This document shows, piece after piece, positions 23,546-60,720 of a stretch of 64,000 bases of DNA. The position numbers were made by a program, and so were the translations under genes. This DNA comes from Blasia pusilla. Taxonomy: Eukaryota. The number at the start of each line of letters is the position of its first letter. The stretch's first letter is position 1. Under the pieces are notes generated by a model that saw only the letters and a program-made list of their open reading frames with translations, ran no database searches and had not been told where the DNA came from. The stretch is taken from contig CM114271.1 of the NCBI GenBank assembly GCA_050084515.1, positions 4,278,001 through 4,342,000 on the forward strand. Direction: 5' to 3'.

Positions 23546-23984
23546 TGTCGTGCGAATCCACACCGTCATACAACATACATCGCTGACATATCATATTCAC
23601 ATACATACATAACATAGACGAGAGCATACACAAACACAAGTGTACCACAACTGAAATCCGTGAAAGACCTACTGTCATAAAACACATATATAATCACATA
23701 CAGCCAAACACTGGAGTAAACCACCATAGCCAAGAGCTCTACTCACTACCAAGGCTAACTCCCAACGCAACAGGCTCAACTCAAAGAACTAATTGTTCTT
23801 TGAGTACACTCCACACTATATCCTCCAACCTAAGGGCGGGCCCTACTGGAAAAGTCACCCTCAATGGAGTAAACCCCAACCCTATGTATGAAACCGCATC
23901 CCTACCTAGACACTACGGCCCTACATATGGTATGGCCTCTACTAGCACACTATACTCTACGACATAATCCGTATGGTCATGACA
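23546..23984 (-). mobile_element. Solo terminal unit (solo-LTR-like) related to the split-repeat family
   Basis: TGTCGTGCG...ACAACATACATCGCT...TGACA termini like elements 1 and 2. TCTT on both flanks (within a CTT run). Absent at the paralogous site ~44650. Confidence 0.8.
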
Positions 23985-25139
23985 TCTTCTTCTTCTTCTT
24001 TCCTTCGATCGTGGGCCTCACTTCACCAAATCACACAACATTCCTTCTCCTCCTCCTCCTTTCCTTCCTTTTGTCGCATTTTTTCCATCCTAACTTTTGT
24101 CTATCTATCCTTCCTACTCTCTATCATCATCTTCTGCATAATCTCCTTTTCGTCTGTTGTTTGCTTTATCGACTCTGTCGTGCGCATACACATCGCTACA
24201 CAACATACATCGCTATCACTGAACACACACACAAACACACACGATCCCATGCTAACTCATGACATCCAAACAACGAGACAAGAAGTACCAAAATATCTCC
24301 AATAAAGTAAGATCTCACAATCTCTCTCTACACAATCTCACACCATAGCTCTCAAAGGTGTGCACTCTCTCTCATGTCAAACTAAACCCACTCTCCTAAT
24401 GAGAGGCTTGGGTTACACTCACAAGGCAAGGGACCATAGCTCCGTCGCCTCATGCCAAGAGGTTCAACAAAGAGAGAATGAGCTCTCAAGCTCTCTCTCT
24501 CCTTGGGATATATATCCCTCCCCTCTCCCAAGCTCTCTCCATGGTAACCTATTCTCCCAAGTCACCTCTTTGGCTCTTGACCTGATGTAGGAGGTCAAGG
24601 GCCACTTAACAAAAATAGAAAGTTGATCATATACTCAAAATGGTACTTACCTAAAATAGTAATTTCCTCAATATGGCTCCAAAGGAGCCAAAACGAAGGG
24701 GAAACCTGTTCTCTCACGTTTCCCCGGGCCCTAGCAGGTCATCCTCGACCTCCCAGGCCTGTCCTCCACTACTCTTGAAGACGCTCTACTAGATCTCACC
24801 GATGTATCCTAAAGGACGTGACAACTGTCGTGCGCATACACATTGCTAAACAACATACATCGCTATCACTGAACACACACACAAACACGTACGATCCCAT
24901 GCTAACTCATGGCATCCAAACAACGAGACAAGAAGTACCAAAATATCTCCAATCGCCCCCCTAGCTGGTGGTTAGGTCCCTCTAACTCCAGATAGCCATC
25001 TATCCCTACCTTCCATGACATACATCTCTCGGACACTAAGAGCAAGAAGGTCGGGTGCTCATGTGGCCTCATCGTTAGTCGCCTTCATGTAATCCATATC
25101 AAAGAAAAAGTCGGGATCGAAACCTACCTAGTATCTCCT

Positions 25140-28100
25140 CTATGTACATCTGGGACACATCCATCGTCCCCGAGGAACCCTAGTGAGAGGTGGCGTCAGA
25201 CATGCCATATGTCAACCTCTCGAACAACCATCACAGACTAGCATTGTGGCCGCACCACGGGCAGAACCACACAACATACAACGCAAGCCTGCAGGAATTA
25301 CTGCTAAGCTCGGATCCACTATACTATCAATGTTAGGAAGGTGACATGGTCCTTCCATACCATACCATCGCGTCCCTCCAACAAGAGAACACCGGATGGC
25401 AAAACGTCACACACTCTCAGGATAGTGCGCCCTGCAGTCACATCCAACGTCATCGTTGCCGTCTGCTGCAAGTAGACATAATCTCCCTGATGAAACCTCC
25501 AGATAGTTGGTCGATAACCACCACCCCGAATAGTCGCATACCTCAATGTATCTCGATGTTGCGCAATCGCCAAGTTCTCGAACGCCATGGGCATCATTCT
25601 CTGAAATAACTCAGCCCTCTGAGAACATGCTCGCACCCATACATCTGGGTCATCAAGGTCCAACACCTCACCCGCATCTCGACGAATGGCCGCATGTAAA
25701 TCTGGCTCTCGGCCATAAAGTAGCAAGTACGGTGAAAAAGACGCTAAGGATGCCTGCTTGCTGAATCTGTATCCCATCGCCAACCATGGCAACTGGAGGT
25801 CCCAATCTCCTAGGTGACCTCTCTGCAAGCCATACTTGTGTAAACCCCTCTTCACCGTCTGCACAACTCTCTCCGCTAATCCATCCGCCTCGGGATGATC
25901 TCACAAAGTCATGCAGTGGTCGATAAGCACTTGATCACACAAGGCTTGGAACTCACCTCGAAACTCGGTACCCTGGTCTGTCAACACCTCAGCCGGTGCG
26001 CCATAATGACTCAGCACTCTGTCAAGGAAGGCATAAGCTACTCCCTCACTCGCTTTGTCAGGCAATGCAACCAACTCGATCCACTTTGAGAAGTGCTCGA
26101 CCATCACCAACACATAACGACTGTGACGCTTTGTCAAAGGCAAAGGTCCTCCAAAATCCAAACTCCATCTATACCCTAAGCCCATGATCGGTAATGGATG
26201 CAACTGTGGAGTCGGAGCATTGAACGATGCTCGGACCCAATCACACACCATGCACCTGGCAACAAACTGCTGAACGTCAGTCTGCATGCCTCGCCACCAA
26301 TCGAATCTGGAGCAAGTCGACGTCCGCTTCACCCCAAAGTGACCCAACTCCTCGTGGGCATGCTGCACTAGTCGTGCTCTCTGCGAAGGATGCGGCACTA
26401 TGAGTACTCTGCCATCCTCCCAAACCCTCAAAACATGTCTCCCCTCCCAACGGAACCGTATGGCCCGCTGTAGGATCCGATCTCGCTCTCTAGCACCCAT
26501 AGTGCTCGCAACGCTGCCCGTACAAAGGTACTCCAAGACTACTCCATCATCATGAATATCTCGGCCACCTGTCGTCTCCTCACTGGCCTCGGGATCCAAG
26601 GACTCTCCATTAGACCTCACCATCGAAGTCTCCACACTCTGGCTCTCCATAGCAAACATGCCTAAATAGGCTGACGCGTGCCATCCTGGCACCGACTCCT
26701 CATCACTCTCTCCATGCCATCGAGCTCCAGTCGCATCTCGCTGACTCGGGCATGGGTTACGACTCAACCCATCTGCATCTTGGTTGAGCCTCCCAAGTTT
26801 ATGTACCACCTGAAAATCATACTCCTGCAACAACAGAGCCCATCTCGCAAGCTTCCCTATAAGCTTGTCGGACTCCATCAACCACTTCAGTGGTTGATGA
26901 TCAGTGATGATAGTAAAGGGGTTGCCGAATAAGTAACACCTGAAATGCGCGACAGCCCACACCGCAACCAAGCACTCACCCTCATATGAGCTGTACTTTG
27001 CCTATGCAGCGTTGTTCGAGCGGCTAGCGTAAGCCACCATGAACTCTCTACCCTCATCATCATGTTGGGTGAGCACCGCTCCAAGCCCCAACATGCTCCA
27101 ATTGTGTGCAACTGGAAAGGACGCCCCCTGATCGGTCTCCTCAAGATGGGCGCAGACATCAACCTGTCCTTGAGCAACTGAAATGCTTGCTCCTGCTCAT
27201 CCCCCCAGTGCCACTCGTGATCCACCTTGGTCAGAAAGGTCAGTGGCTTCGCAATCGAACTAAATCCCTTGATGTATCGCCGATAGAAGTTTGTCAATCC
27301 CATGAATGCGCGAACCCGGCTCACATCTGTAGGGCGTGGAATGCGTGAGATAGCGTCTACCTTCGTTTGCTGAACACCAAGGCCCCCTAGGTATATCGTA
27401 TGACCCAAGTACTCAATCTGGTCGTAGAAGAACTTGCACTTGCCTGGATGTAGCTTCAACCCATGTAATTGCAATCATGGAAACACCTCCTCTAGATGTC
27501 GCTCATGCTCCTCAACCGTGGCGCTAAAGACTACGATATCATCAATATAACACCTAGCAAAATCTAGACCAGCGAAGATCCTATCCATCACCCTCTGAAA
27601 CTCAGCCGTGGTGTTCTTTAACCCAAATAGAAAGAACCGCGACTGGTACAAACAATCCTTCCCGTGAGGATCGATGCCCCAAAATGTCGTCTTCACTTTG
27701 TCCTCCAATCGATAGGCGGTGATGGTATCGGCTCATAAATCCAATGAATCAAGACCTTTGCGTGACCAATCGCATCAAAGATCTCCTCAGGGGTGGGCAT
27801 GGCATACCTATTGGACTTCGTGTGTCGATTGATAGGTCGGTAATCCCCACACATCCGCCTATCCGTCCAGTTGCCATGCACATCCTTCTTGGCGGGCATG
27901 ACAGTGGAAGATGCAAACTCCCCATGCGACATCTCGACTAGTCCTGCTCTGACCAAGTCCTACCTCCTACTCTAAATCAGAGCCCTCTCCATATCACTGT
28001 ACCTGTAGGGTCGTCGGAAGATCGGCGTATCACTTGACAACTCAATGCGGATCCCCAGTCCCTTCAGCGTACCCAAATCCTCCATGCTAAACCCAAAGCA

Positions 28101-28190
28101 ACTCCTATAACTCCTGAGGAACTGATGTATTCGGCGCCGCTCTCCTCTTGTCAACTTAGGGCCCATATCTGGCTCCCAAGTCTCCATCCT
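25140..28190 (-). pseudogene. Element 1 RT-RNase H-integrase-PHD, frameshifted
   Basis: RRMCGDYRP, YIDD, TDHQPLKWL, HEELGH..CMVC, WSLDF..VLTDQG. C-terminal CMLC..CDGC..H..C..W.CPRC at ~25140-25283. Confidence 0.92.
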
Positions 28191-28233
28191 AACTACGGTA
28201 GGACTCTCCCGCGCGCGTATCGGTGGTTGCTAT

Positions 28234-29263
28234 TGTCGCGACCCTCATAACCAAACAACACCAAATAGGCGCCAAGCGAAACATAAGAACTCCAAGGAAC
28301 TCACGTTGCGAGGTTTGCGCTTTGGAGAGGCGTTTGGAAGAGTCTCTTGGAAAAGTCTAAGAGACGAAACGCGGAACAGAGTTGTGCATTTCATGCATTA
28401 GTGGTCGCGACCAGGAAACCTAGACCATACGCAGCCGAGACTTGAGGTGAGTTGAGTCTTGGGAGGTTGGTTGCCAAAGAGGCGAGAACCAGTTTGGAAC
28501 ACGACTAGCGTTTGAGAGAATCTGACTGTGTTTAGGACCATAACGTTGATCTCCAAGATGCGTTTGAGACAAATAAGGGCGCGTTGGAAAGCTGATCTTG
28601 AGACGCTTCCAACGCACCAAAGATCTTAGAAAACGCATAAGTACAGGCTGAGATATTGGCCGAAAACAATTGAGAGACCAATCGGGTTGAGGGCCAATTG
28701 GAGAGGCCCGGGTGTCTTTCCCTAAATGTAGGGGGCCCCCGGAGATCCCCAGAAGTACTAGTAAGGAAGGACCTTCTCCGAGATGTCTCGGGAAACGAAA
28801 CCCCACTTTGGGCGCCAAACGGCGTTTCAGAGGCACGGGATGGAACAGGAGTTTGGCGCGGAAACCCGAAAACCAAACCTGATCCAAGGGAGTGGACTTT
28901 GTATGCCACACTTGGATTCCAACCCGAGATTCACTTCGTGCGAGTCTTGGTGAGGAACTCATTGGATGTTCATCGGACAGTTGGAACCGCTAGGCGCGAA
29001 ACGCCGTTTCAGGTTCCTGAACCGACCAGAAAGTCTGTCCCAAGTCTTTTGAGATTTGCCCGTGTTGGAAACCGCAAAACTAGGAAGGTTGAGCTTGAAG
29101 AGAGTCCGAGACGAGAACTCGGAAAGTAATCCCGCTGATTGATCCAAGACCCGACTAACCGAAGTGCGTGTTTGGATGCAGATCAACGTTGAGAGCCTGA
29201 CCTACTGAACGCACGCTTCCGCAACAAACAAGATTAACGTTCAAGGAGAGTAGGCGCACGACA
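28234..29263. mobile_element. Nested ~1030-bp solo LTR inside element 1
   Basis: TGTCGCG...GCGCACGACA with 5-bp TSD GCTAT; absent from the equivalent linker of element 2. Confidence 0.85.
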
Positions 29264-29519
29264 GCTATGGTGCAACCCCGTCTCGAACAACAACACTCGG
29301 CCGCTCTCCTGCAGCCAACTGCAAACTCTGCTCTCCTCCACGTGCAGTGCCTGAAACCACGCTCGATGTTGTGGCTATCATCTCCTTGCGTACCTGCAAA
29401 ACATCCCAAGAAGTCTAAGGGTGTCTCTCCGGATCTCCTCGGGTCTCGCCCCCACCCACTGCCTCCACTGTCTCGGTAGGCATGGGGCTCACCAACGCAA
29501 CCGCTGTGATCTGTCGCGA

Positions 29520-30490
29520 TCTCATACGACGCTGCTCAGCCACTCCCAAGCTGAGGATCCATGTCAAGCAATTCAGGTCCATCGCCTGACCCAAGATATG
29601 GCATCGTGATGCCTCTTATATTGACGGTACTGGCGTCACCCCTGTGGGAAATCCCATCGCTTGCTCTCTCTCGTCGGCGTTGGGCTCAACTAACCGCTGA
29701 ACATGGTCATCCCAAACCAAGCCAGGACCGGCCTCCTTGTATGCATAGGAAGCGGGAAAACTCATGAACGTGGGCAAGGCTGACCGCCGCCTGCCTACCC
29801 TGTTGACCACAGTCAATGTTGGTCGATCATCGTGCCTCACGCTGTGATCGACGACTTGGATCCAGAATGGAATCCACTAAAAAATGGGAGGGGCGCTCCA
29901 CTCTCGCATACGCCCTTCGTAATACCGCATGGGGCACCAAGTTGGTCCACCATAGACGCGGGCGATGGGCTCTAGAACCTACACTCGCCGCATCCAAGAA
30001 CACTGTTGGGCCGATCCACGCACGCACTTGATGAGCACTCGTCACCACCCATGACCGGGAGTCTCCTAAGATCGGCACATTCTCCAGAATGTAGGATGGA
30101 GAATGAGACTGGTGCTCCTGTAACTACCGTAAGACCCTCAACATCTCCCAAAACAACCTGGACCGAGTGTCAACCAACCCGCTGCCTCGTCCAGCACTTG
30201 ATTGGCCGTGACATGGCCAACCGGCAATGACCAAATCAATGGTCCCTACCCGCTCTAACTCTTGCGCCCCCAACAACGAAATATCCCTCGGTAGGGAACT
30301 CTGATACCCCTGTATTGCGGAGGCAGACAATAAGTCGAGAAAACGTAGGCGTAACTACGCCACATGTCGTAGTGAGACACGCCTCGCAACATCATCACTC
30401 TCCACATACAGGTGCCGTTGTACTCGCACTCCTGCCTGCAATACAACAGCTAACCCGGTGCTAATCCTTCCAAAGAGATCTAACACTCAA
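29520..30490 (-). pseudogene. Element 1 DNMT3-like C5 cytosine methyltransferase domain
   Basis: Motifs VLDLFGRISTG (I), IDLVIAGWPCHGQS (IV), ILENV (VI), AHRPRLWWTN (VIII), EREQAMGFP (IX). Confidence 0.88.
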
Positions 30491-30839
30491 ATATCCTCCT
30501 CCGGGGTACACCACACAATGGGTGTGGTATCCAAGGGTGTCATCGTAGCACTCCCTGCTACCTCGGGTTCCTCAGACCCATCACGCTTCGGTGCAAACGC
30601 TTCGCTCCACGCGGTCTGCACGTGCTCATTTGCCAATCGTCGAAGCTCCTCAGTCGAGCCCCACATCGGCACCTCTCCTCCACGGAATGATGCACCTACC
30701 ATAACACTCCTCTCCATAGAAATGTCAGGAACGGGAGTATCCTCTGCATGGACATGTCCCTCAATCAAATCACTAGGCCAAGTGATGGCACTGCTAAATG
30801 CTGCTAAGATCGCCATCTCTCCTGGCCGTTGCTCGATCA

Positions 30840-33350
30840 CTGCACATGTGAATCGAACGGGTAATGAGCTAAGGCGCCCATCACCTCATTGCCATCCTGG
30901 TCTATAGGACGCTGACTCCTCCCAGTAATCCAGGGAAAACCCCATCGGGTATAACACTGCTCCACCAACCAAGGCGATAGTGACTCTGCATGAGTCACTA
31001 TCGCCTTGGCGCGCACCACGGACTCATCTGTAGGATGTCCCGGGTGAATCCTCACCACAACCTCTTGTCGGGTGATATACTGTGTGGTACTCGCTCCACC
31101 CAAGGATGTCTATATCCGGAATGGACAACGCTCCACATCGGCTCTCGTCAAGCCCAATCCTCTGAATGACGCTTTCCCCAACATCAAGGGTTGCGCTCTT
31201 GAATCCAACAAGACGCGCTACGGACTAAAAGCTCTACCTCCTGGACTCACCAAGTGGAAGACCTCTCCTCGGTTATCCAGCAACACAACACCAGGAGAAG
31301 CCATGGCACGCTCTATTGCGGGTCGAGCAGGCATCTCCGCCATTCTAGCAGCCCCAGCCTGCCATGAATCTGACGTGGACGGTCCGAGCATCCGCTCCAA
31401 GGGCAGGTCCATCACCTCCTCTACAATCACCTCTGAATGTGTTGTAGGAACTCCAACTCCACGCTCACATAGCGACGCGGCCAGCCAAAAAGCCTCAGCG
31501 GGCGTACCCCCCAACGTCATAACATCGGAAGCAGAAAACAAAGGAGTGCGGAACACAACGGTGGTCGCCCCCAACAATGTGCTTGACACATGCCCCTCCT
31601 AAGCATCAACAATATGAGTCATCGCACTCGCTTCTCCCATCGCCCTCCATGCCTGCACACCAGCATCACCAACTCTTAAGGAACTTTGATGAGGACCCAT
31701 CGATGGGGTCCTCATCGCTTCGGACAACGTGAAATACTGAGGAAGCCTAGTCTGTTTTCTGGCTTCCCCTCGTTGTGGATCCAACTTTGCGGTTGCTCCA
31801 CATGTCACAACTGCGGCGGACTCCATCTAGGCAAATCCGCACATCCAAACAGGATCCTCCAGATCTCTAGCTGCTCCATATGATGTCGATGCCACGGATC
31901 TGGCATCGGGTAACCTCAATGCCATAGCGGCAATCTGCTCCTATAGCTATTGTATCTGAGCAGCCATCCCAGCCTCACATCCGGCATCTCCCTCGGCGCG
32001 TCTAGGTGGTGGTACTCTACCTCCTCCATGGGCAGCTCCACCACCCTGTCGGGCAACTCCAGCTCCTCGTCCCCCAACGGGACCACCTGGTGCACAATCT
32101 CTAGTCCCACCCGGACCGGCTACTCGCTCTGGTGCCCTCTCTGGCCCTCGGTCCGAACGTAACTCATGATGTAAACTGAAACACCTGGCGTGTGTATGAC
32201 CATACCTCTGACAATAGTCACACTGATAACCTCCTGGTGCAGCACCATCTCCTCCTCCATGCTGAGGCATACGTCCATGACCCTGACGAGTGCAATGGCG
32301 CTGATGATGGGCTCCACCACATGACCAACAAGTAATAGTAGGCGGTTTCTGTTGAGTCGCATATGAAGGCGCAGGTCTCTGTGCCACGGGCTCCGAGTAT
32401 CCTACCTGAGCTCGTGGTGCCACAGTTGACCTATCTCAGAGTCCACGTTGCTGCATAGGTGGTGCAGCCAATCGCGACTGCTCTCGCCCAGAACCCATGG
32501 TGGCTACGCTCTCCTCCGCCATGTTGCGCTCAATATTCTCGGTGGTCCTAAAAACATCTCTCAACGTAGGTGAGGTGTTCATAAGAAGCACCCCCTCCCG
32601 CACCCATGGCCGCAGGGTCTGGTCCAGCATCACATACCATGACTGGATAGCCTGAGCCTCTGTCACTCCCTGAGTGACGTTGATCAACCGGCGCAAGCGA
32701 GTGTAAGCCTCACGTAAACTCTCATCCAGGCGCCTCTGGAAGTTGTGGATGCTCCGCAACTTTTCCGTCCATACCCCTTGGTAGCTCGCCCTCAACTCAC
32801 CAAAGAACTCAACCACGGAGTTGAACCTGGGACGAACCCGACTAGACGGTGCAACTACTCCAGTGCGAGTGACCCCTCCTAAAACATCACTAGTGGAAGA
32901 GGAAGTAGCCTCTCCTGACTCCTCCTCCTCGTGTGGGAATGGCTCCGTCCATGATTCATAGTGTGGGTCGTAGTAGAGTCGCCATGCCTCAATCTCCTGG
33001 GCATATCTGTGGGAAAACTGATGGTAATCGTCCATGGGTGCCCCCTCTAAATGCTGGAACATATCGTTCCACGTTGTAAACGGGTTGAACTCTCTAGAGT
33101 TCGTGGCCCACTGGGAACTGCACCAACTCCTAAACTCTGCTATGAAATCGTGCAACTCAATCGTACCTACTGCACCTGAAAACCTACGCAATCCTCTACC
33201 CCGGTCGTCCATCTCGTACGCCCAATTGGTAGGACCACTCAGAATATGTGGCGATGAGCTCACAAATTCCTCCACACCCTCCCCCTTGTCTAACGATGAC
33301 ACAGAAGGAGGTCGAGGTGGTCCTTGAAGTGAAGACCCTCGGAACCTCAC
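30840..33350 (-). pseudogene. Element 1 gag with two CCHC zinc knuckles, and aspartic protease
   Basis: Gag-like QRRLDESLREAYTRL; CWSCGGAHHQRHC and CDYCQRYGHTHARC; VLLDSRAQPLMLG near 31180-31215. Confidence 0.8.
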
Positions 33351-34324
33351 GCCACTCCGCGTAAAACCTCTAGAGCTACTCTCGAGTTCACCACCTCACC
33401 TCTCAAAGTCCCGAGCGGACGCCGTGATGACCCTCGTGCCTTTCTCACCCGATTACTCTTGCCTCGCGAGTAATCCCTCAATCACTCATGCCAAACATGC
33501 GGCACTCGATCTACACTCGCCCTCCCCGAGACATGTAACGTACGGCAATAAGCGGCGTGGTGCGGAAAATCGACCAGGCTATCATCTCATCCACAACCTA
33601 CCCTCAACTCCGGACATCCCACACAGGTCTATGTCCCCTAAATCACATACATAAATGTTGCTCTCAGCATCCACACACCCAATATCCCCAAATAAAATAC
33701 CCAGATCCAAGAATCCCTCACACGTGCAGGGTAAGGGACCAGAATGGGTAACCTGAACACATGTCAATGTCGCTCCTCAGCAACTGCGAAACTGCGACCC
33801 CAACTCAGTCATGGAGACAACTCCTCCAATCAGCAAGTCATACTCCTCCCGTATTGACGTTGCTCAAAACTCCTCGATAGGCAGTGCGGTTCAGCGAACG
33901 GGGCGGTGTTGCAGCAAAGACGGAGGCGGCTCGAACGGCACCGCCCTCGATGATGGGATTCGGCACTCGGCGGCATACCCTCCTCAATCAACAATAAACC
34001 CACACTCTGCTCCACAATGCTGGAGCGGCTCCGCGATGAAGACGGTGCGGTGCGGCCACCAGTGGCACGGTGTGGCAATCGGCGGCGCGTTGCGGCTACG
34101 GGCGTCACGGCACGGTACCCAATCGTCGTTGAGCGGCTACCAATCACAACATAGCAGAAGGAAATCAAAACTCAAACACTATAACATGAGGTCATATGCC
34201 ATCACAGGTTGATGACGGTGGCGGCGAAAACAAAGTACGTGATGGCGACGCAAGTCCAAGAATCAACGAACGTAATGGAAGACCCTCCACTCCGTAACGG
34301 CGGCAATGGCAACCAAGGGTGGAC

Positions 34325-34515
34325 AACGGACGGTGGACCATTGACGGTGACGGTGACGGTTGACCGTTGATGATGACGCACGAACGGTGACGGTGACGGT
34401 TGATCGTTGACCATGACGGTTGATCGTTGACTGTGACGGTTGACCATCGACAGTGAAAGTTGGCCATTGACGGTTGAAGGTTGACGGTTGACGGTGACTA
34501 TGACGGCGACGGTCG
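34325..34515. repeat. Low-complexity GACGGT(TGA) tandem array in the element 1 leader
   Basis: Repeated gacggt/gacggttga units. Confidence 0.8.
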
Positions 34516-37500
34516 CCGCCGGTGTGGCGGCTGGTTTAGGGTTTGCATAATTTAACCCTAAAAATTGCCTAGCAATGGTAGTTTTTCAATATTGACCATA
34601 ACTTTTTGCTCGTAACTCCAAATTGAGCATTGTTTGTTGCACAGCGTGCACAGCTTCACGATCTACGCTAACATCAAAAAATAATTGGAATCGGACATTC
34701 CAGTAAAAATTGGAGGGGACTGTCGTAAAGCCCAATGTCTCTTTCTTCTACCCAACATTCGGCAGGGCTTCCGCGCTTATTCCTCCCAAAAAAAATGTAA
34801 AACCTATAAAAATGCAAATGAGCAAGCGACATGATGCTCCCAAAAGCACTGGCATGGGGCAACCCGCCCCCATACTCAATCCCTATCAGAAATTGGGCAG
34901 CGCTTTCGCGCGCCACTCTTCCACACGAAAAATCGACAAATGCAATGAACAATCCAAGCAACCCTTGCTCCGATGAGCACTCCCATGAGCCGTTGAACGG
35001 GGAACACGGTCCCCAACCTGCAAAAACAGCGAGTGACCAGCGAGCTTCCCCATGAAGCTCTCTCACTCTCTCATTCTCGCATTCTCTCTTTCTCTCATTA
35101 TCTCATTCTCTCTTTGTAAAATAAGATCCAATCTCTCTCTACATAATTTCACACCATAGCTCTCAAAGGTGTGCATTCTCTCTCATGTCAAACCAAACCC
35201 ACTCTCCAAATGAGAGGCTTGGGTTACACTCACAAGGCAAGGGACCATAGCTCCGCCGCCTCATGCCAAGAGGTTCAACAAAGAGAGAATGAGCTCTCAA
35301 GCTCTCTCTCTCCTTGGGATATATATCCCTCCCCTCTCCCAAGCTCTCTCCATGATAACCTATTCTCCCAAGTCACCTCTTTGGCTCTTGACCTGATGTA
35401 GGAGGTCAAGGGCCACTTACCAAAAATAGAAAGTTGATCATATACTCAAAATGGTACTTACCTAAAATATTAAGTTCCTCAATATGGCTCCAAATGAGCC
35501 AAAACGAAGGGGAAACCTGCTCTCTCACGTTTCTCGCGGCCTAAGCAGGTCATCCTCAACCTCCTAGGCCTATCCTCCACTATTCTTGAAGACGCTCTAC
35601 TAGATCTCACCGATCTATCCTAAAGGACGTGACAACTCAACCCTCATCCTCACCCGTTTGCTTATTTCGGTTCCTCCACTGAGGGACCGCCTCTTTGCGT
35701 GGATGGCTATATTAGACTATTTGGTGGATCCGTAATCTACCAATATTGTGACGCATGAGGGCAAGTGTTTCTGGCAAACAAAGAGTTCCATTCTCGCTCC
35801 CAGAGTTGTGCCTTACATACACCACCGTCCCTTGAATTTTGAGTAGTTTGACTTTCCTCCCCAAACGGATTGTCCAACACTTTTGTGAAAGTCATTCGCA
35901 CGATCTCAAGCTGGACTCTGGAGTTTTATAGAGGTGGTGCGTTCACTCCATCCCAAGCTTTCCTGTGGATTTGATGATTGTATTCCATTTCTTATGTTTG
36001 AGCTTATTGCACCCATCCCATTGTGGGCACTCTAAATGTTTCAATATCTAGTGTCTTGAATGTCATTTGGAAGCAGTTTATGGCACTGCACAACCTCTTC
36101 CATCTCTTACATATTCCCAAACGTCAGACTTAGGGTTGTATTGTAGTGCACATATCTTGGATTATTTGTTGGGAGTTTAGATCATAGCAAGTCTTTTTCA
36201 GCCAATATGACATGCTTCTAGCCAAGTCTATCCAAGTCTATCCAAGGGTCTTTTACCTTTCTTGCCTCACCCTTATCACTTTAAGTGGTTGCGCCCCTTC
36301 TCTCCTAAGGTTAGTCTCAAGGTGCATGCATATCTTTACTAACTTTAGTCTATGGCACGTTCCTTTCTAGTCTTGTGACTATCTGGTCTAGGTTGTGACT
36401 TTGGCACGTCGCATTTTAATCTTCACAATGGATTTCCCTTTCAACACCAAGTCGGATTCGCCTCCATCTCTACGATAGTTGCTTTGAGATGCTTTTACGC
36501 ATCGTCTTGGTTCTCAATCGACTATCAGTCTTCATTTGACAATAAGGGTATCTCAATAGATATTTCCCATGGAAGATCCAATTTGGAAGGGTAAGGTGCT
36601 TCTTTTGTTGTAATTTCTCCCAAATGTGAATAGATAATCACCTTCAATAGCGAGATTGTGTCTAATGTCATGAGATTCATGGAAAACACCCCTCTTTTGA
36701 AAAATCCACATGGTGAATACCATGTTAGTCTGCTAAAGATACTGGACTTAGAAAAGTTGGTTGCGGATGTTCAAAAAGGTTTGACTTCAAGCATTGTTGG
36801 TATTGGCCTTGATTAAGGAACATACCCTCCTTGTTCTCCATCCCTCTTTCTACAATTATCATGGAATCTCGAGACATTCCCATGGCATGGGTATTGGATT
36901 GACATATTACGTAAGGAAACGCTAGATCTTCTCTAAGACATGTCTTGAATTCCTACAAATGAAACATGAGTCATCTGGTTGGTATTGCCTCTCAAATGGT
37001 TGGTTATAAGGAGAAAGACCACCTAAAATTTCTCTCTGTGGATTGAGATAATCTGGCTCATGCATTGGCTCCAAACTTGCTAAAGGATAAGAAAACAATG
37101 GATTGTGGTTTGAACATGTGATTCAAGATATACCATGGGAGAAAATTCAATTTTCCAATCTCAAAAATCTGAAAATAATATGTATTAGACCTAATGGCAC
37201 AAAGTATATGCTTTGATGTCACATCTACTTTCAAAATGGTTGGTAAAGTTGCACTTGCAGCAGCAACAAACAACTCAAGTTGAACTTGTGTGTCTTGTAT
37301 TGACTTCTAAGTCTCAGATGGTAGCGCAAAAGCAACATAGTCAGTAGATCAGCCGTAGCAAGATGCAGGGAGAGACACTTATCGACGTTGGCTGGTTCTT
37401 TCTCTCTAGAGCAACATCTAGTTGTGAGTATGAGCACATCAAAATTATTTCCATCTCTACCTTGCGTTGATACATGCCATGATACCATTATCGTTTCAGT

Positions 37501-46610: not shown

Positions 46611-47629
46611 TTAGACGAAGTCATTTTGGTCTTTTAGGATTTTCTTCCGAAAATGGCAACTCCTTATATTCCTCAGGAGTCGGACTCATACTCGAATTGG
46701 AGTGGGTAGGCCCTCAAAGTCAAGGAGGGATTCTTTGGGAATACTAATATCTCTTCACGATCATTCCCTCATGATTTTTGCTTTCTTGGTGCGTTTCATC
46801 CCATATGTCGTGCGCATACATATCGCTACACAACATACATCGCTGGTCACATCTACACCACACAACACCAATCTTCCCCACACACGGGTCAATCCACACA
46901 TGTACAAAAATCAACTTATACATATACATGGAGATCACACAACAAAAATAAAGAGTAGTAAAACTAGCACACCCGGCCTAGAACTCCACTCCTCAATCTA
47001 CATCGGCATATCGAGCCTGCGCTATCAAGAAATCCGGACGCTAGCACCCTAGTCCTATCTCACACACATACAAGAGAGGTGCTCCAACGACCCAACATGA
47101 GAAAGATGGCTAAGGAAAGCCATCCTCCTCTCTTATATAGGGTTGGGAAGAGCCAAAAGCCTCTTCCCCTAAAAATAACCATCCCCTTGGTAACCTCCGC
47201 GCACAGGTTACCAAGGGCGGGTGACCTGGTCAACAAATCACCCAGTTGTGGAAGACCTCAACAGGAAAGTTTTCAGAAACAACGTTCCTGACACAATGGA
47301 CAGATCCTCAACCTCATTCGACACCGTGGGACAAAGTTACACTCAAGATAGTCCGTTGGCTCCTACGCCCTACCCACGATAGATCTCGGCCTATCGGCGA
47401 TTCAAATGTGACAGCTGTCGTGCGCATACATATCGCTGCACAACATACATCGTTGGTCACATCTATACCACACAACACCAATCTCCCCCACACACGGGTC
47501 AATCCACACATATAAAAAAATAAACTTATAAATATACATGGAGATCACACAACCGCCCCCCTAGTTGGCAGTTGGATCCCCCCAACTCCAGATAGAAAAT
47601 ATCACATCTCTCTGACATGACCTACTACC

Positions 47630-50600
47630 GTATACACATCTCGGACACATCCATCATCATGTGGGAACTACATCAAGAGGGGGGTTCAGACATGACATAT
47701 GCCACCCTCGAGAACAACCATCACATACCAACATGGTGGCTACACCCCTCGCAGATCCGTACAACATACACCTCAAGCCTGCAGGTACCACTGCCCAGCT
47801 CAGATCCATAGTCCCATTTACGTTTGGAAGATAACATGGCGCACAATTGCGCATATGATCCTTCCAAACCATACAATCCCGTCCCTCCAACATGAGGACT
47901 CTGGTCAGTAATACCTCACGCACATAGGATCGTGCGCCCTACAGTGATATCTAGCATCGTGGATGCCGCCTGCTGTAAATACACGTAATCTCCAGGATGA
48001 AACCTCATAATCCCTGGATGATAACCTCCTCCATAAATAGTCGTGTACCTCTGTGTATCTCTATGTTGAGCAATAGCTAAGTTCTCACAGGCCATAGGCA
48101 TAACTCTACGAAAAATCTCCGCCCTCTGAGAACACGCTTGTACCCACACAACTAGATCATCAAGATCTAACACCTCCGCCATATCACGTCAAATAGCTGC
48201 AAGTAAATCTGGCTCTCTCCCAAAGAGCAAAAATTATGGTGAAAATAACGCCAAGGATGCCTGCCGACTAAAGCGATAATCCATAGCCAACCATGTCAAG
48301 TGTAGGTCCTACTCCCTCAACTGTCCTCGCTGCAAGCCATACTTACGCAATCCTCTCTTCATTGTCTGTACTACTCTCTCCGCCAACCCATCCGCCTCAG
48401 GATGATATCTGGACGTGGTACAGTGATCTATTAGCGCCTGATCACACAAGGCCTGAAACTCTCCCCTAAACTCGATACCCTGGTCAGTCAACACCTCCGT
48501 CGATGCACCAAAGTGACTAAGCACACGATCTAGAAACGCATAAGTTGTTCCCTTGCTCACCTTGTCCGGTAGTGCCACCAACTCTATCCACTTGGAGAAA
48601 TGCTCCACCATGACCAACACGTACATGTGATGACAGCCCGTCAATGGCAAAGGTCCCGCAAAGTCTAAACTCCACCGATAATCTAAACCCATAATCGGAA
48701 AAGGATATAACTACAAAGTGGGAGCATTGAAGGATGCTTGCACTGTGTCACATACCATACATATGGCCACAAACTGTTGTACCCCAGTATGCATGTCGCG
48801 CCACCAATACTAAATCTGGAGTAAGTTGTAAGTACGCTTCACTCCAAAATGTCCCAACTCCTCATGGGCATGTCGCACTACACGTGCTCGCTCAGAAGGA
48901 TGAGGTACCACTCCTATCCTACCATCTCCCCATACCCGCAAAATGTGAATCCCCTCCCACCTGAACCTCCTGGCTCGCTGTAGGATCCGATCCCGCTCCC
49001 TAGCACTCACTATGCTTGCTATGAGGCCACTGTGCAAGAACTCCATAACCTCCACGTCGTCATGGATATCTCGACCACCTGTTGCCTCCTCACTGACCTC
49101 CAGATCCAAAGACTCATCATCCAACCCCACCATTGGAGTCATCACCTGTGCTGACCTACCATAGTCAACCAAAAAAGATAGACATATGCATGCCAACCGA
49201 GCACCATCTCCTCATCACTCTCTCCCTGCCATCGAGCTCCTGTATGGTCTCTCTGACTCGGATATGGGTTACGACTCAACCCATCCGCATCCTGGTTCAC
49301 CCGGCCTGGCTTATGAACCACCTCAAACTCATACTCTTGTAGTAATAGAGCCCACCTGGCAAGCTTTCCCATAAGCTTCTCGGACTCCATCAACCACCTC
49401 AACGGCTGATGATCAATGATAAGTGTGAAAGGGTTGCCGAATAAATAGCACCTGAAATGTGCCACGGCCCACACTACAGCCAAGCACTCTCCCTCATAGG
49501 AGCTGTACTTTGCCTCTGCAATGTTGTGTGATCGGCTCGCGTAAGCCACAACGAACTCCCTCTCCTCGTCATCCCTGTGAGTAAGCACTGCTCCTAGACC
49601 CAACATGCTCCAATCCGTATGTAACTAGAATGGGCGACCCCTAACCAGTCTCTATAAAATGGATGAGGACGTTAACCTGTCCTTGAGCTCTTGAATTGCT
49701 CACTCCTGATCATCTCCCCACAACCAAACCTGATCAAGTCTTGTCAACAAGGTCAAAGACTTTGCGATCGCACTAAAACCCTTGACATACCGTCCATAGA
49801 AGTCTGCTAGTCCAAGAAACGCTCGGACTCAACTCACATTTGTAGGGCATGGAATCTACGCAATAGCCTCCACCTTTGTCTGATGAACGCCTAACCCACT
49901 CCAATATATGGTGTGTCCCAAGTACTCAATCAGATCCTAAGAGAATCTTCACTTGCCTGGATGTAACTTCAGTCCATGTAACTGCAATTGCCGAAACAAC
50001 TCCTCCAGTGTCGCTCATGCTCCTCAACCGTGGAACTGAAGATAAGAATGTCATCTATGTAACATCGTACAAAATCCAAGCCAGCCAAAATCCTATCCAT
50101 CACTCTCTAAAACTCCGCAGGCGCGTTCTTTAACCCAAATGGTAAGAACCGCCACTGATACAAGCAATCTCTCCCGAACCGATCTATCCCCCAGAATGTT
50201 GTCTTCACCCTGTCCTCCAACTTGATAGGAAGCTGATGATAGCGAGCACATAGATCTAAAGTATTGAAGATCTTTGGATGCCCTACCGCATCAAAGATCT
50301 CCTCAGGAGTAGGCATGGCATACCGATCTGACCTGGTTTGTTGGTTGATAAGACCGTAATCTCCACACATCCGTCTATCCATCCAATTGCCATACATATC
50401 CTTCTTTGCCGGCATGACTGTGGCAGATGCATACTTCCCATGTGATAACTCCACAAGTCCTCCCTCCAACAAGTCCTGACTCTTGCTCTGAATCAAGGCT
50501 CGCTCCATATGAGAATACCTATGGGGTCGACGAAAGATCGGCGTATCACTAGCCAACTCAATCCGTTTCCCGAGACCCTTCAACGTACCCAAGTCTCTCA

Positions 50601-53600
50601 TACTGAAGGCAAAACAACTGACATGCCCTCTCAGAAACCTATGTACTTGCCGTTGCTCTCCTCCCATCAACTTGAGACCTATCACAGGCTCCCAAGTCTC
50701 CATCGTGATCTCACTCGGAGAGGACGCAACCTCCGGCTTTGGTTGCTTTGTAGCAACCCTAGCCACCTTCGCAATAGCCACTCTATTGTGATCTCCTACA
50801 CCATGATCCACATCCAAAAAATGAACATGTGCTACTCTCGCCGCCTTCGCACTCTCTGCTTGAATGACGTCCAAGGAAGTCCATGGGTGCCTATCTCTCC
50901 TCGTCTCGCCCCCAACCAATGCATGTACAGACCCTATAGGAAATGGTCCAACTTGTGGATGTAATGATATGGATGACACTCACATCCGTCTCTGCTCAAC
51001 CATACCTAGGCTGACTATCCATGTGAGACAGTTGAGGTCCATGGCCTGCCCCAACACCTGTCTCCGAGATGCCTCAATCATACCTCGCACCGCCGTAGTA
51101 CCCGTAGCAAACCCCATGGCGCGCTCACGCTCATCTGCTGTAGGCTCCTCTAATGCTCGGGTCATCTCATCCCAAATCATGTCTGGCCCTCCCTGACAAA
51201 AGGTATGGGATGCTGGGAAGCTCACCAACATTGGTAAGGCTACCCTAAACTCCCCCACCCTATTGGCCATCACCAACGGTGGTCTATCATCCCGCGTCAC
51301 CACCTGAGATCGACGCCCTGAGCCCAAAATAGCATCCACTATGAGATGTGGTGCAATCGAGACTCCATCGTATGCTCGACTCAGTACCTCTGATGGTATT
51401 ACGTTCGTCCACCACAGTCGTGGATGATGGGCATATGATCCAACTCTCGCTGCATCTAGCAACACGACAGGTCCCAACCAAGACCTCACCTGATGCACAC
51501 TCGTCATCACACGTGCACGAGTGTCTCCCAACAACGACACGTTCTCCAAAATGTACGTTGGAGAACATGTCTGACGCTCATGCAAGTGTCCTACTACTTG
51601 AAGCATCTCCCAAAACATCCCTAACCTCGGATCCTGCAATCCAAATCCTCGGCCAGCTTATGAATGACCCTCACATGGCCATCCAGCAATCACCAAATGA
51701 ATGGTGCCAACTCTATCTAGATCCAGCGCCCCCACGTCGGCGGATAGTGTATGTTGATATCCCCGTACTCTAGAGACCGAAAACAACTCAGGATATCTCT
51801 GGACCAATCTCGCTACGTGATGTAATGACACTCGCCGCGCAGTCTCATCTCTCTCCACATAAAGGTTCTAATGCACCCGTATGCCCGCCTGCAATACTAC
51901 AACCAATCTAGTGCTAATCCCTCCAAAGAGATCTAACACCCTAACACCCTCCTCTAGACACTGCCACACAATGGGTGTGATATCCAGTGGGGTCAACGTC
52001 TCCACTCTAGGGGCCCGATCATCACGTGACTCTTGCTGCTCCGAGATAAAGGCATGACTTCACGCCTGCCTCACAAGGTCGTGGGCACCCCTCTGTAGCT
52101 CTCGAGTCGTACTCCACAATGGTGAAGAGGTCTTGCCAACATGGGAAGAGACACCTGCCATGGTTTGTCTCTCTGTGGGACTATCCGCTACTGGGACATC
52201 CTCTGCATGTGCGTTCCCCTCCAACAACTCTCCTGGCCAACTAACACTACCTGTGAAAGCTGCCAACGTGGTCACAGACTCGTCTCGTGATCGACCACCT
52301 CGTCCCGCAAACTGCATGGGTAACTGACTCATCCGCCCGTCACTTGACCGACACCCTGGCTGATAAGCAATGATCTCCTCCCATAAGTCAAGGATGAATC
52401 TTAGGGGATATAACACTGTATTCCCCCACCAACACATCGTACGACTCAGATGGTGTCGTAATCGCACGTGTGCGCACCATAGCACTATCCGTCGCATGCT
52501 CTAGCTGGACTCTGACAACTATCTCCTATCGAGTCATATATTGTATGGGTGACGTGCCCCAAATCGAGGTCTCTATCTGGAAGGGACAAGGCTCAATGTC
52601 GGCCTTTTGTAACCCCAACGCTAAACACACCGCCTTCCCTAACATCAAGGGTTGCGCTCCCAAATCAAGTAGGGCGCGTTGCAGGTGGTAGACTCTCCCC
52701 GTTGGACTAACCAAGAAAAATACTCCAGGTCGGTTATCCAGTAACACTACTCCATGAGTCACCACTGCTCGCTCTATGGCCGGTCGAGCTGGCATATCTA
52801 CCAACTTCGCCGCCGCCGTATGCCATGACTATGTGGAGAACGTCCCAAGCACCGGCTCTGAGGGCAAGTCCACCACCTCCTCAACTACCTCTGAACAAGA
52901 AGCAGTCACCCCTCCACGCTCACACAACGTGGCGGCCAACCAAAACACCTCAGCTGGTCCAACTCCCAACGTCGCCAACTCTATGGCAGAAAATAGGGGA
53001 GTCTGACTCACTCTATGGCCACCTCCAACACTATGGTCGACATTGACTCCACTCGAGCCGGCATAGGAGTTGTCACTCCAACTCCTCGTGACGTCCACGT
53101 GGGTGCTTGAGTTGTAGGCACCGCTGGTCGTCGAGGCACCATCGATGGTGTGTGTAGTGCCTCGGACAATGTGAATGACTGTGGAACCCTAGCTTGGCAT
53201 CCATCGGTCCCCTCCGGTGGGTCAATCTCAACTCCACCTCTTGATGGCTTGGTGCCTCTCGTAGCAAACCGAGTCACCACTACAGCCGCCTCAACCTGAG
53301 CTGCACTACACATAAACCCCATACTGGCGAGATCCTCACCCGAGTCAGGGTAAGAGGTAGAAGCTGGAGCCACACTAGCTGCTCGTGGCTCCTTTCCTTC
53401 CCTGAGCTGCATCATCGTCATGGCAGCAATTCTCTGCTCCAACTGATTGATGCGTGAGAGAAGTGCCGACTTTGGTGCTCCTGCTCCATCTCCTCAGGCT
53501 GGTGGTGGTCCTCTACCACCACGTCCACGAAGAATTCCCCGAACTCCTCCAGGACGACCGTCCCCAAGCCCTCGGCCTGCCTCTTGACATGCCTCTCAAC

Positions 53601-53685
53601 GAACGTCATAACATCTATCCCTAGTGTGACCATATCTGTGGCAATAGTCACACTGGTATTGTGGTGGGCTCTGGGGTCTCACTTC
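47630..53685 (-). pseudogene. Element 2 gag C-terminus-protease-DNMT-RT-RNase H-integrase-PHD, decayed
   Basis: Colinear with element 1: ALLDLGAQPLMLG, RRMCGDY, LPFGLKNAP, YASRS..YSSYEGECLA, WSLDFAG, LVCDGCSRGWHMSCLNPPL. Confidence 0.9.
50980..51945 (-). pseudogene. Element 2 DNMT3-like C5 cytosine methyltransferase domain
   Basis: RVLDLFGGIST, LVIAGWPCEGHS, YILENV, LDAARVGSYAHHPRLWWTN, ERERAMGF, SRRQVLGQAM. Confidence 0.9.
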
Positions 53686-53889
53686 TACGGAAGAGATCCA
53701 TCACGTACGACAAAGTATAGGGTTTTTTAATTCAATTTCGGGGAAGACTTATAAGGTTTTGTGGAAGAACTTAAGGGTATTTTTAATATAGGAAAACACT
53801 TATAACAAACATAGGGATTTATTAATTCTTTTTCTGTACATGGAAGATGTTCAAGGAAGTAAGGGGGAGATTAAGAAGATAGGAGACCA

Positions 53890-55904: not shown

Positions 55905-55908
<4 letters not shown>

Positions 55909-55969: not shown

Positions 55970-55971
<2 letters not shown>

Positions 55972-60717: not shown

Positions 60718-60720
<3 letters not shown>

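What the first reader, a model, noticed from the sequence alone, without database searches (positions are those of the whole stretch)
24176..35634. DDE-integrase Gypsy-like element with split direct repeats (B...A-B-A) instead of paired LTRs
Seen: on + the element reads A(128 bp)-B(520 bp)-ac-A(128 bp)-internal-B, so the sense order is B-gag/pol-A-B-A. Ends are TG...CA with a 4-bp TSD (ACTC), confirmed by the empty paralogous site at ~44850. Known: split direct repeats are typical of tyrosine-recombinase retroelements (PAT/Ngaro/TOC1), which lack DDE integrase and usually lack TSDs; Ty3/Gypsy elements have two complete LTRs. Inference: a hybrid replication strategy. I do not recall it being described for Gypsy elements, but could not check databases.
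Basis: partly seen in the sequence, partly recalled or inferred. Interest (0 to 1): 0.93.

Follow-up and report, generated by a model that had tools for sequence, protein, structure and literature searches.

The report
Gypsy retrotransposon with split terminal repeats
This is a decayed copy of a plant-lineage Gypsy-type jumping gene that carries its own DNA methylase and, instead of two matching end repeats, has a conserved B...A-B-A repeat layout that suggests its DNA copy is closed end to end before its integrase inserts it.

Summary
On the + strand the element reads A(24176-24303)-B(24304-24823)-ac-A(24826-24953)-internal-B(35118-35634). It has TG..CA ends, a 4-bp ACTC duplication and an empty paralogous site at 44850.

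The layout is not a one-off. A second element in the window (46806-63324) and 9 distinct metagenome loci have it, and RNA and DNA reads show the B-NN-A junction in other copies.

It is already in print. De Mendoza et al. 2018 note in one figure legend that KnitGypsy-Dnmt3 of Klebsormidium has DIRS-like repeats with Gypsy domains. This is therefore a new member of a known kind, with its nearest named proteins in liverworts.

- A Tf1-like self-priming site abuts the 5' B.
- A G6 polypurine tract abuts the inner A.
- Reverse transcription should therefore make LTRs of the form a-GC-b.
- The integrase ends sit at a palindrome (GACAGCTGTC) inside that LTR, so the integrated copy is a circular permutation of the RT product.

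I infer a circular or end-joined intermediate opened by the integrase. This is not shown.

A repeat-less b-internal-a form with 4-bp duplications is at least as common as the split-repeat form.

The parts
24172..24175 (.). Left copy of the 4-bp target-site duplication (ACTC)
   Evidence: the empty paralogous site has a single GCTC at 44850-44853
Its sense-strand end ...GCGCACGACA is the right integrase end.
It holds a TATA-like box and, 32 nt downstream, the 16-nt segment complementary to the PBS (24467-24482).
24824..24825 (.). 2-bp spacer ('ac' on +, GT in sense) between the a2 end (CA) and the b1 start (TG). With its arms it reads GACAGTTGTC, one transition away from the palindrome GACAGCTGTC seen in E2.
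24826..24953 (-). a2: the inner copy of the short repeat
24954..24964 (-). Polypurine tract CTAGGGGGGCG (sense), directly upstream of a2. It is identical in E2 and present about 945-960 nt after the integrase match in most metagenome relatives.
25319..27001 (-). Integrase (H2C2 zinc domain, rve DDE core, C-terminal part) and RNase H, in broken frames
   Evidence: best solved relative: Ty3 Gag-Pol, then PFV integrase
26887..27959 (-). Reverse transcriptase (RVT_1; YIDD motif) and the start of RNase H, in broken frames
28234..29263 (+). Nested 1030-bp insertion of another TG..CA element (ends TGTCGCG...GCGCACGACA, 5-bp duplication GCTAT). Not part of the ancestral element.
   Evidence: joint 28228->29264 in RNA and DNA of other copies
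29827..30354 (-). C-5 cytosine DNA methylase domain (PC and ENV motifs) with one in-frame stop
   Evidence: PF00145; 65% identity to a Marchantia protein, 42% to K. nitens KFL_009030040; family M copy closest to DNMT3A/3B
31947..33395 (-). gag-like region with two zinc-knuckle-like motifs
   Evidence: motifs read by eye; Pfam gave no hit
35102..35117 (-). Putative self-priming PBS: 16 nt directly after b2, perfectly complementary to b positions 342-357
   Evidence: 0 of 300 shuffles reach 16 nt; paired in the MFE and centroid folds
35118..35634 (-). b2: the 5' copy of the long repeat. Its sense-strand start TGTCAC is the left integrase end. TATA-like box near 35319-35325; putative RNA 5' end and self-primer at 35278-35293.
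35635..35638 (.). Right copy of the target-site duplication (ACTC)
46806..63324 (-). E2: second, older element of the same layout. A' 46806-46943, B' 46944-47413, 'gc', A' 47416-47553, PPT 47554-47564, internal region with nested junk, PBS 62889-62902, B' 62903-63324. 4-bp duplication CATA.
23546..23984 (-). E3: solo b-a unit (439 bp, TG..CA, about TCTT duplicated in a microsatellite), absent from the paralogous flank. Same family as the metagenome loci.

Best explanation
What it is (shown). E1 (24176-35634, minus strand) is a dead copy of a Ty3/Gypsy-type retrotransposon of the Dnmt3-carrying lineage first seen in Klebsormidium. In sense orientation it reads b - PBS - gag - Dnmt3 - RT - RNase H - DDE integrase - PPT - a - GC/GT - b - a. 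It has TG..CA ends and a 4-bp target duplication. This split-repeat layout is conserved across diverged families.

How it works (inferred).
1. Transcription starts about 30 nt after a TATA box inside b.
2. The first 14-17 nt of the RNA fold back on the complementary site that directly follows the 5' b and prime minus-strand DNA, as in Tf1.
3. The G6 polypurine tract directly before the inner a primes the plus strand.
4. Ordinary strand transfers would then give linear DNA whose LTRs are a-GC-b, that is a-GC-b-internal-a-GC-b.
5. The integrase ends (TGTC... of b and ...GACA of a) lie abutted inside each such LTR as a palindrome, GACA-GC-TGTC.
6. The integrated copy b-internal-a-GC-b-a is a circular permutation of that product. 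Its b|a junction is exactly [last base before the PBS][first base after the PPT].
7. I therefore propose that the cDNA ends are joined into a 2-LTR-type circle or concatemer, and that the integrase cuts one palindrome after each CA. That would leave 3'-processed ends with 2-nt overhangs, which it then inserts.
8. Cutting a 1-LTR circle, or using the inner sites of the linear DNA, would give the repeat-less b-internal-a form, which is also found. Only the split-repeat form can again make a terminally redundant RNA.
For: Layout: E1 and E2 in the window share the layout, the termini and a 4-bp duplication.

Relatives: of 60 metagenome loci that encode relatives, 26 could be scored at the 3' end.
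- 11 (9 distinct) have a-NN-b, and the outer a is present wherever the contig reaches it.
- 15 (11 distinct) end at the first a.
- Complete split-repeat copies L006 and L011 have perfect 4-bp duplications.

Reads: RNA reads (83+121) and 2 DNA contigs join the end of E3 back to its start with 2 letters between. The junction therefore exists in other, transcribed copies.

PBS: the bases directly after the 5' b are complementary to b 31-32 nt after a TATA-like box.
- E1: 16 nt. E2: 14 nt. 0 of 300 shuffles reach these lengths.
- Family M: up to 16-17 nt, and at least 9 nt at offset 0-1 in 9 of 15 loci.
- The three families use three different sequences, so the pairing covaries.
- The E1 fold pairs the two segments, z = -4.7.

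PPT: CTAGGGGGGCG abuts the inner a in E1, E2 and family M.

The b|a junction equals [pre-PBS base][post-PPT base] in E1, E2 and family M, and is precise in 7 of 9 family M copies, E3 included.

The a pair and the b pair of one element are similarly diverged in E1, L006 and L011, as expected if both pairs were made at insertion.

Spacers GC, GT, AC and AT are all transitions of GC.

Precedents:
- PFV integrase cleaves the palindromic LTR-LTR junction of 2-LTR circles (abstract of PMC1180852).
- HIV-1 integrase does so in vitro (title and start of abstract of PMC1905944).
- Self-priming is known in Tf1/sushi and is predicted for plant Tcn1 elements (passages of PMC7175516 and PMC6317226).
Against: - No circle, no linear cDNA and no RNA end was observed. 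The start and end table did not resolve the transcription start or the poly(A) site.
- A circle with two identical palindromes should open equally often to b-a-GC-b-internal-a. That form was seen at 0 of 15 5' ends. This asymmetry is unexplained. Faster collapse of its longer, closely spaced b repeats is only a guess.
- The b|a junction is mostly precise, which templated copying would also give.
- The b-internal-a copies could be simple deletions between the two a copies rather than a separate integration product.
- E2 and L045 show more divergence between the b copies than between the a copies, though the samples are small.
- Integrase cleavage of an internal palindrome by a Ty3/Gypsy enzyme is untested.
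- All copies examined are degenerate.
Confidence: 0.5

Rival explanations
1. Every integration gives the split-repeat form directly, by a reverse-transcription or recombination route that needs no circle. For example, the RNA may run through the outer a and only U3 is restored. The repeat-less b-internal-a copies and the solo b-a units would then be later deletions between the a copies or the b copies.
For: The mirror form b-a-NN-b-internal-a is absent (0 of 15 5' ends). The b|a junction is precise in 7 of 9 copies. The 4-bp duplications of b-internal-a copies (5 of 8 perfect) fit deletion equally well.
Against: No primer site exists where this route needs one. The sequence before b1 is not purine-rich, and a1 is followed by host DNA. 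The conserved PBS and PPT sit exactly at the other pair of repeat boundaries, which this route leaves without a role. b-internal-a copies outnumber split-repeat copies (11-13 against 9 distinct 3' ends), although old split-repeat copies such as E2 kept both a copies.
Confidence: 0.2
2. A DIRS/Ngaro-like route: the inner a-NN-b junction serves as a splint that brings the two ends of a single-stranded cDNA together into a circle in the integrase register. That circle is then opened by the integrase in place of a tyrosine recombinase.
For: The repeat topology is the same as A1-internal-B1-A2-B2 of tyrosine-recombinase elements (passage of PMC8969392; legend in PMC5890265). The a-NN-b junction is transcribed.
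Against: This route gives no role to a PBS and a PPT that coincide with the repeat boundaries. It does not require the a copies and the b copies to be alike at insertion, yet they are similarly diverged. No tyrosine recombinase was found in the frames scanned.
Confidence: 0.1
3. The split-repeat form arises by homologous recombination between an integrated solo b-a unit, or a b-internal-a copy, and an extrachromosomal circle of the element.
For: Solo b-a units exist (E3). A crossover in the longer b would favour the observed form over its mirror form.
Against: It needs a pre-existing solo unit at every site. Split-repeat copies have their own 4-bp duplications at unrelated sites (E1, E2, L006, L011). 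The a and b pairs would not be expected to be equally diverged.
Confidence: 0.05
4. The A-B-A block is an assembly error or a one-off rearrangement of an ordinary Gypsy element with paired LTRs.
For: No single long read spanning the block could be examined.
Against: The same block, with the same termini and a 2-bp spacer, occurs in E2 (76% identical pol) and in 9 distinct metagenome loci. It also occurs in RNA and DNA reads of other copies. An independent description exists for K. nitens.
Confidence: 0.02

Closest known systems
KnitGypsy-Dnmt3 of Klebsormidium nitens (de Mendoza et al. 2018, PMC5890265; section 9 and the Fig. 4 legend were read)
   Same: Gypsy domain set with a Dnmt3-type methylase upstream of RT in pol. 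The repeats are stated to be arranged as in DIRS elements. Proteins are homologous and colinear: RH-IN is 46% identical to KFL_009030040 and the DNMT is 42% identical.
   Different: A different host lineage: the nearest named proteins are from liverworts (Calypogeia fissa 70%; Marchantia DNMT 65%). The paper gives the repeat layout one sentence and no mechanism. Its supplements could not be read and may hold more.
DIRS-order elements with split direct repeats (PAT, Ngaro; layout A1-internal-B1-A2-B2)
   Same: The same topology of two interleaved repeat pairs, with an inner junction that abuts the two element ends.
   Different: Those elements use a tyrosine recombinase and lack target duplications (passage of PMC8969392). 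Here there is a DDE integrase, TG..CA ends, a 4-bp duplication, a self-priming PBS and a PPT.
Tf1/sushi and plant Tcn1 Ty3/Gypsy elements (self-priming)
   Same: A PBS complementary to the first bases of the element's own RNA instead of to a tRNA (passages of PMC7175516 and PMC6317226).
   Different: Those elements have ordinary paired LTRs whose ends are the integrase ends. No phylogenetic placement was made here. No chromodomain was found. Relatives carry a PHD finger according to the precomputed Pfam hits.
Integrase cleavage of retroviral 2-LTR circle junctions (PFV, HIV-1 in vitro)
   Same: A retroviral-type integrase cuts a palindromic end-to-end junction and yields 3'-processed linear DNA (abstract of PMC1180852; title and start of abstract of PMC1905944).
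   Different: In retroviruses the junction is made by joining the LTR ends and is at most an accessory route. Here the palindrome is built into every LTR, and the joined ends (b|a) are the non-integrase ends.
IS3/IS30-type insertion sequences and pararetroviruses
   Same: IS circles carry abutted ends separated by 2-3 bp that a DDE transposase uses for insertion. Caulimovirus-type replication turns a terminally redundant RNA into a unit-length open circle.
   Different: Neither is an LTR retrotransposon. The likeness is one of mechanism only.

Membership tests
Ty3/Gypsy (Metaviridae) LTR retrotransposon | pol domain order RT - RNase H - integrase, with a DDE (rve) integrase | tested here: met
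   Pfam RVT_1, RT_RNaseH, Integrase_H2C2 and rve in that order on the minus strand. The best solved relative is Ty3 Gag-Pol.
Ty3/Gypsy (Metaviridae) LTR retrotransposon | Two complete, identical long terminal repeats whose ends are the integrase ends | tested here: not met
   The 5' end carries b only and the 3' end carries a-NN-b-a. 0 of 15 related 5' ends have an a next to b.
Ty3/Gypsy (Metaviridae) LTR retrotransposon | TG..CA termini and a short (4-6 bp) target-site duplication | tested here: met
   E1 ACTC, E2 CATA, L006 AAGG, L011 TCTC
Ty3/Gypsy (Metaviridae) LTR retrotransposon | gag with a zinc knuckle, and an aspartic protease | tested here: inconclusive
   Two CX2CX3-4HX4C motifs were read by eye in 31947-32435. 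Pfam found neither a knuckle nor a protease in the broken frames.
Gypsy-Dnmt3 lineage (KnitGypsy-Dnmt3) | A Dnmt3-type C-5 methylase inside pol, upstream of RT | tested here: met
   PF00145 in E1 and in L029 and L006, directly before RVT_1. The closest solved proteins are DNMT3A/3B. Colinear with K. nitens KFL_009030040.
Gypsy-Dnmt3 lineage (KnitGypsy-Dnmt3) | Repeats arranged as in DIRS elements (A-coding-B-A-B) | tested here: met
   against the legend read
DIRS order (PAT/Ngaro type) | A tyrosine recombinase in place of a DDE integrase | tested here: not met
   No PF00589 hit in any frame scanned, and a DDE integrase is present. Not every short frame was scanned.
DIRS order (PAT/Ngaro type) | No target-site duplication | tested here: not met
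   4-bp duplications flank E1, E2, L006 and L011
Self-priming Ty3/Gypsy elements (Tf1/sushi, Tcn1) | A PBS next to the 5' LTR that is complementary to the 5' end of the element's own RNA | tested here: inconclusive
   The complementarity is shown in three families, at the distance from a TATA box expected for the RNA start. The RNA 5' end itself was not mapped.
Self-priming Ty3/Gypsy elements (Tf1/sushi, Tcn1) | Phylogenetic placement of RT/IN within that clade; a chromodomain | not tested
   No reference set was at hand. No chromodomain hit in E1. Relatives list PF00628 (PHD).

The most novel reading that the evidence does not exclude
This lineage has uncoupled the ends made by reverse transcriptase from the ends used by integrase. 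Its cDNA must be circularised or end-joined, and a DDE integrase then linearises it at an LTR-internal palindrome before insertion. Insertion from a circle junction is known for IS elements and was once proposed for retroviruses. Here it would be an obligatory step for a Ty3/Gypsy element, possibly with a pararetrovirus-like episomal cycle, in which only the 1.x-length (split-repeat) insertions remain able to replicate.
Probability: 0.35. Interest if true: 0.8.

Novelty: new member of a known kind. Interest (0 to 1): 0.55.

Why it matters
LTR retrotransposons are defined by two identical LTRs whose tips are the integrase substrates. This lineage spans a streptophyte alga and bryophyte-like hosts and breaks that rule in a conserved way. 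It has been noted in print in only one sentence.

The sequence features found here are a self-priming PBS, a PPT and a palindromic end-to-end junction inside the RT-defined LTR. Together they turn the oddity into a specific, testable model: a DDE integrase working from a circular or end-joined cDNA.

The model bears on three matters:
- how tyrosine-recombinase elements with the same repeat layout replicate;
- the old question of whether circles can be integration precursors;
- TE annotation, because LTR finders that expect paired LTRs will miss or mis-delimit these elements and their repeat-less b-internal-a derivatives.

The element's own Dnmt3 adds the possibility that the cDNA is methylated before insertion. 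That idea comes from the 2018 paper and was not tested here.

Tried and rejected
Window copies, read laying and metagenome loci were used instead.
- Earlier findings of this scan: nothing by place, by sequence or by words.
- The viral contig scan found no relative.
- Run index: no RNA holder listed. Raw RNA runs of the same species label were laid instead.
- In one search the contigs were too short to span A-B-A. The 30-bin depth and the start/end table did not resolve the RNA start or the poly(A) site. Joints between A and B at 24303/24953 -> 35117 only reflect ambiguous placement between B1 and B2.
- Pfam found no protease, zinc knuckle, chromodomain or tyrosine recombinase in the broken frames.
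- A tRNA-type PBS (TGG...) is absent after b2 and after a2 (read).
- I considered the intron hypothesis for the internal region (no GT..AG at its borders) and for the 1035-bp skip (it also stands in DNA contigs), and rejected both.
- I considered whether indels at the b|a junction betray end-joining. Only 2 of 9 family M copies, E3 included, have an insertion there (L001 +1 nt; L009/L011 +19 nt). That is too few to argue from.
- The first script for the PBS test timed out and was rewritten.
- Literature searches for another description of Gypsy elements with split repeats, or of a circle-dependent route for LTR retrotransposons, found only the 2018 paper.
- Supplements are closed, so Supplementary Figs 13-14 of that paper were not seen.
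Full report
**1. The observation**

- A1 is 24176-24303.
- B1 is 24304-24823.
- The two bases 'ac' are at 24824-24825.
- A2 is 24826-24953 and differs from A1 at 5 of 128 positions.
- About 10.2 kb of internal sequence follows.
- B2 is 35118-35634 and differs from B1 at 23 of 517 aligned positions.

The element begins TG and ends CA. ACTC stands on both sides, at 24172-24175 and 35635-35638. A paralogous copy of the flanks has a single GCTC at 44850-44853 with nothing between.

All coding capacity is on the minus strand, in broken frames:
- a gag-like region with two zinc-knuckle-like motifs, read by eye;
- a C-5 cytosine methylase domain (PF00145);
- RVT_1, RT_RNaseH, Integrase_H2C2 and rve.

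The integrase region is closest to Ty3 Gag-Pol and PFV integrase among solved proteins. So the DDE integrase is real.

From here on I use sense-strand names: a = reverse complement of A, b = reverse complement of B. The element then reads b2 - internal - a2 - GT - b1 - a1.

**2. It is not a one-off**

A second element, E2 (46806-63324), is 76% identical in pol. It has A'-B'-gc-A' at the same end, a second B' at 62903-63324, the same termini (TGTCGTGCGC...GTGACA on +) and a 4-bp duplication CATA.

A 439-bp solo b-a unit, E3 (23546-23984), sits in the left flank and is missing from the paralogous flank.

A scan of metagenome contigs with the RNase H-integrase frame returned 60 loci at 50-82% identity. 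Most belong to one family ('family M', the family of E3). In it, a is 115 nt and b is 339 nt, and the same methylase lies before RT.

The 3' end could be scored in 26 of these loci.
- 11 (9 distinct after removing the pairs L009/L011 and L045/L046) have a-NN-b.
- The outer a is present wherever the contig reaches it.
- L006 and L011 are complete b...a-NN-b-a copies with perfect 4-bp duplications, AAGG and TCTC.
- Two loci of other families (L024, L025) also show ...CACGACA-GT/GC-TGTCAC.

Reads of runs with the window's species label were laid at 90% likeness.
- The family is transcribed from the strand that carries the genes. Depth is 10-125 with the first mate on +, against 0-13 on the other side.
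- Most reads are 90-95% alike, so they come from other copies.
- 83+121 RNA reads and 2 DNA contigs join the end of E3 back to its start with two letters between (GC or AC on +).
- 43+83 RNA reads join the a of E3 to E1-like sequence on the PPT side.

So the a-NN-b junction exists in other copies and is transcribed. No read or contig long enough to span the A-B-A block of E1 itself was available.

**3. It is already in print**

De Mendoza et al. 2018 (PMC5890265; section 9 and the Fig. 4 legend were read) describe KnitGypsy-Dnmt3 of Klebsormidium nitens. It is a Gypsy element with a Dnmt3 domain in pol. [quoted passage not shown]

E1 belongs to that lineage.
- Its RH-IN frame is 46% identical over its whole length to K. 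nitens KFL_009030040, which carries PF00145.
- The methylase of family M aligns colinearly with that protein at 42% identity.
- The methylase is closest to DNMT3A/3B among solved structures.

The nearest named proteins are from liverworts: Calypogeia fissa at 70% for RH-IN, and Marchantia polymorpha at 65% for the methylase piece. The host is therefore not Klebsormidium.

Six literature searches found no other description and no mechanistic treatment. A 2026 preprint only refers to 'streptophytes (Gypsy-DNMT3)' (passage). Supplements could not be read.

**4. Priming sites**

*PBS.* The bases that directly follow the 5' b are perfectly complementary to a segment inside b that begins 31-32 nt after a TATA-like box.
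- E1: 16 nt. E2: 14 nt. 0 of 300 shuffles reach these lengths.
- Family M: up to 16-17 nt in L006, and at least 9 nt at offset 0-1 in 9 of 15 loci with a 5' b. The remaining loci are decayed.
- The three families use three different sequences, so the pairing is kept by covariation.
- Folding the predicted E1 leader pairs the two segments in both the MFE and the centroid structure, z = -4.7.

This is the signature of Tf1-type self-priming, which is also predicted for plant Tcn1 elements (passages).

*PPT.* Directly before the inner a stands CTAGGGGGGCG. It is identical in E1 and E2 and present at a fixed distance after the integrase match in most family M loci.

*The b1|a1 junction.* It is exactly [last base before the PBS][first base after the PPT] in E1, E2 and family M.

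**5. What follows from this (inference)**

With these priming sites, ordinary strand transfers give linear DNA of the form a-GC-b-PBS-internal-PPT-a-GC-b. The LTR defined by reverse transcription is therefore a-GC-b.

The ends defined by integration, the b start TGTC... and the a end ...GACA, lie abutted inside that LTR. In E2 they form the perfect palindrome GACAGCTGTC.

The spacers seen are all transitions of GC.
- E1: GT.
- Family M: GC four times, AC four times, AT once.
- Reads, in sense: GC and GT.

The integrated copy b-internal-a-GC-b-a is thus a circular permutation of the canonical two-LTR product.

The simplest route has two steps.
1. The two cDNA ends are joined, as in a 2-LTR circle or a concatemer.
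2. The integrase cuts one palindrome after each CA. That would leave recessed CA-3'OH ends with 2-nt overhangs, the normal strand-transfer substrate.

There are precedents for integrase cutting such junctions: PFV (abstract) and HIV-1 in vitro (listing).

The a pair and the b pair of one element are similarly diverged, as expected if both pairs are made at insertion.
- E1: 3.9% and 4.4%.
- L006: 7.0% and 7.7%.
- L011: 8.7% and 5.5%.
- E2 (5.8% and 10.7%) and L045 (5.4% and 13.5%) fit less well, on small samples.

**6. A second integrated form, and an unexplained asymmetry**

15 of the 26 scored 3' ends (11 distinct) stop at the CA of the first a and run into unrelated DNA. Two more (L007, L023) do so by eye.

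Eight such loci also contain the 5' b, giving b-internal-a with no repeat at all.
- 5 of the 8 have perfect 4-bp duplications.
- 2 have a duplication with one mismatch.
- 1 has none.

These may be products of a 1-LTR circle or of the inner sites of the linear DNA. They may equally be later deletions between the two a copies. Nothing here separates these options.

The mirror form b-a-NN-b-internal-a, which a symmetric circle opening predicts, was seen at 0 of 15 5' ends. This counts against the simple circle model, and I cannot explain it. Faster collapse of that form's long, closely spaced b repeats is a guess.

Only the split-repeat form can produce an RNA with R at both ends, so it should be the replicating master form.

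**7. Verdict**

The novelty claim is wrong.
- E1 is a dead member of a known lineage in a new host group.
- The mechanistic reading given here is new as far as my searches reach, but it rests on sequence logic alone.

Noticed in passing
window 28234-29263 (+): A 1030-bp element is nested inside E1 in the opposite orientation. Its ends are TGTCGCG...GCGCACGACA (the same integrase-end motif) and it has a 5-bp duplication GCTAT. Other copies of E1's family lack it, in both RNA and DNA (joint 28228->29264). At 28846, RNA reads of other copies diverge into different sequence, so it may be a solo b-a unit of yet another family.
   Followed up: partly
window 23213-24106 and 35636-36221 versus 44324-45402: A segmental duplication of at least 1.4 kb (79-90% identical by segment). 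One copy received both E3 and E1; the other stayed empty. E2 lies 1.4 kb beyond the empty copy.
   Followed up: partly
window 53876-55302, 58925-59943, 61565-61797 (inside E2): E2 is inflated to 16.5 kb by foreign sequence: a 347-bp tandem repeat (about 4 copies), a frame with a LINE-like RT motif (read by eye), and a long CA/GT microsatellite.
   Followed up: no
window 17596-18212 (+) and 38235-39431 (+): Two further fragments of related Gypsy pol genes (37-60% amino-acid identity to E1). No recognisable PPT, a or b lies nearby.
   Followed up: no
relatives P0001-P0066: Many relatives of the pol protein list a PHD finger (PF00628) after the integrase, rather than the chromodomain usual in chromoviruses. 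No such hit was found in the decayed E1 copy.
   Followed up: no
family M b, e.g. L006 about 10500-10535; window E3 about 23775-23810: The predicted RNA start lies in a hairpin-like palindrome, CTCAAAGAAC-ATA-GTTCTTTGAG. So b holds a copy of the PBS sequence right next to the self-primer.
   Followed up: no
L009/L011 (b1|a1 junction, L011 10838-10856): A 19-nt filler at the b|a junction partly repeats a nearby stretch of b (TTATGATAGTA). This kind of templated insertion is seen at end-joined junctions, but it is a single case.
   Followed up: partly
window 34344-34463: A 20-bp tandem repeat (5 units, 65-85% alike) in the leader between the PBS and gag of E1.
   Followed up: no
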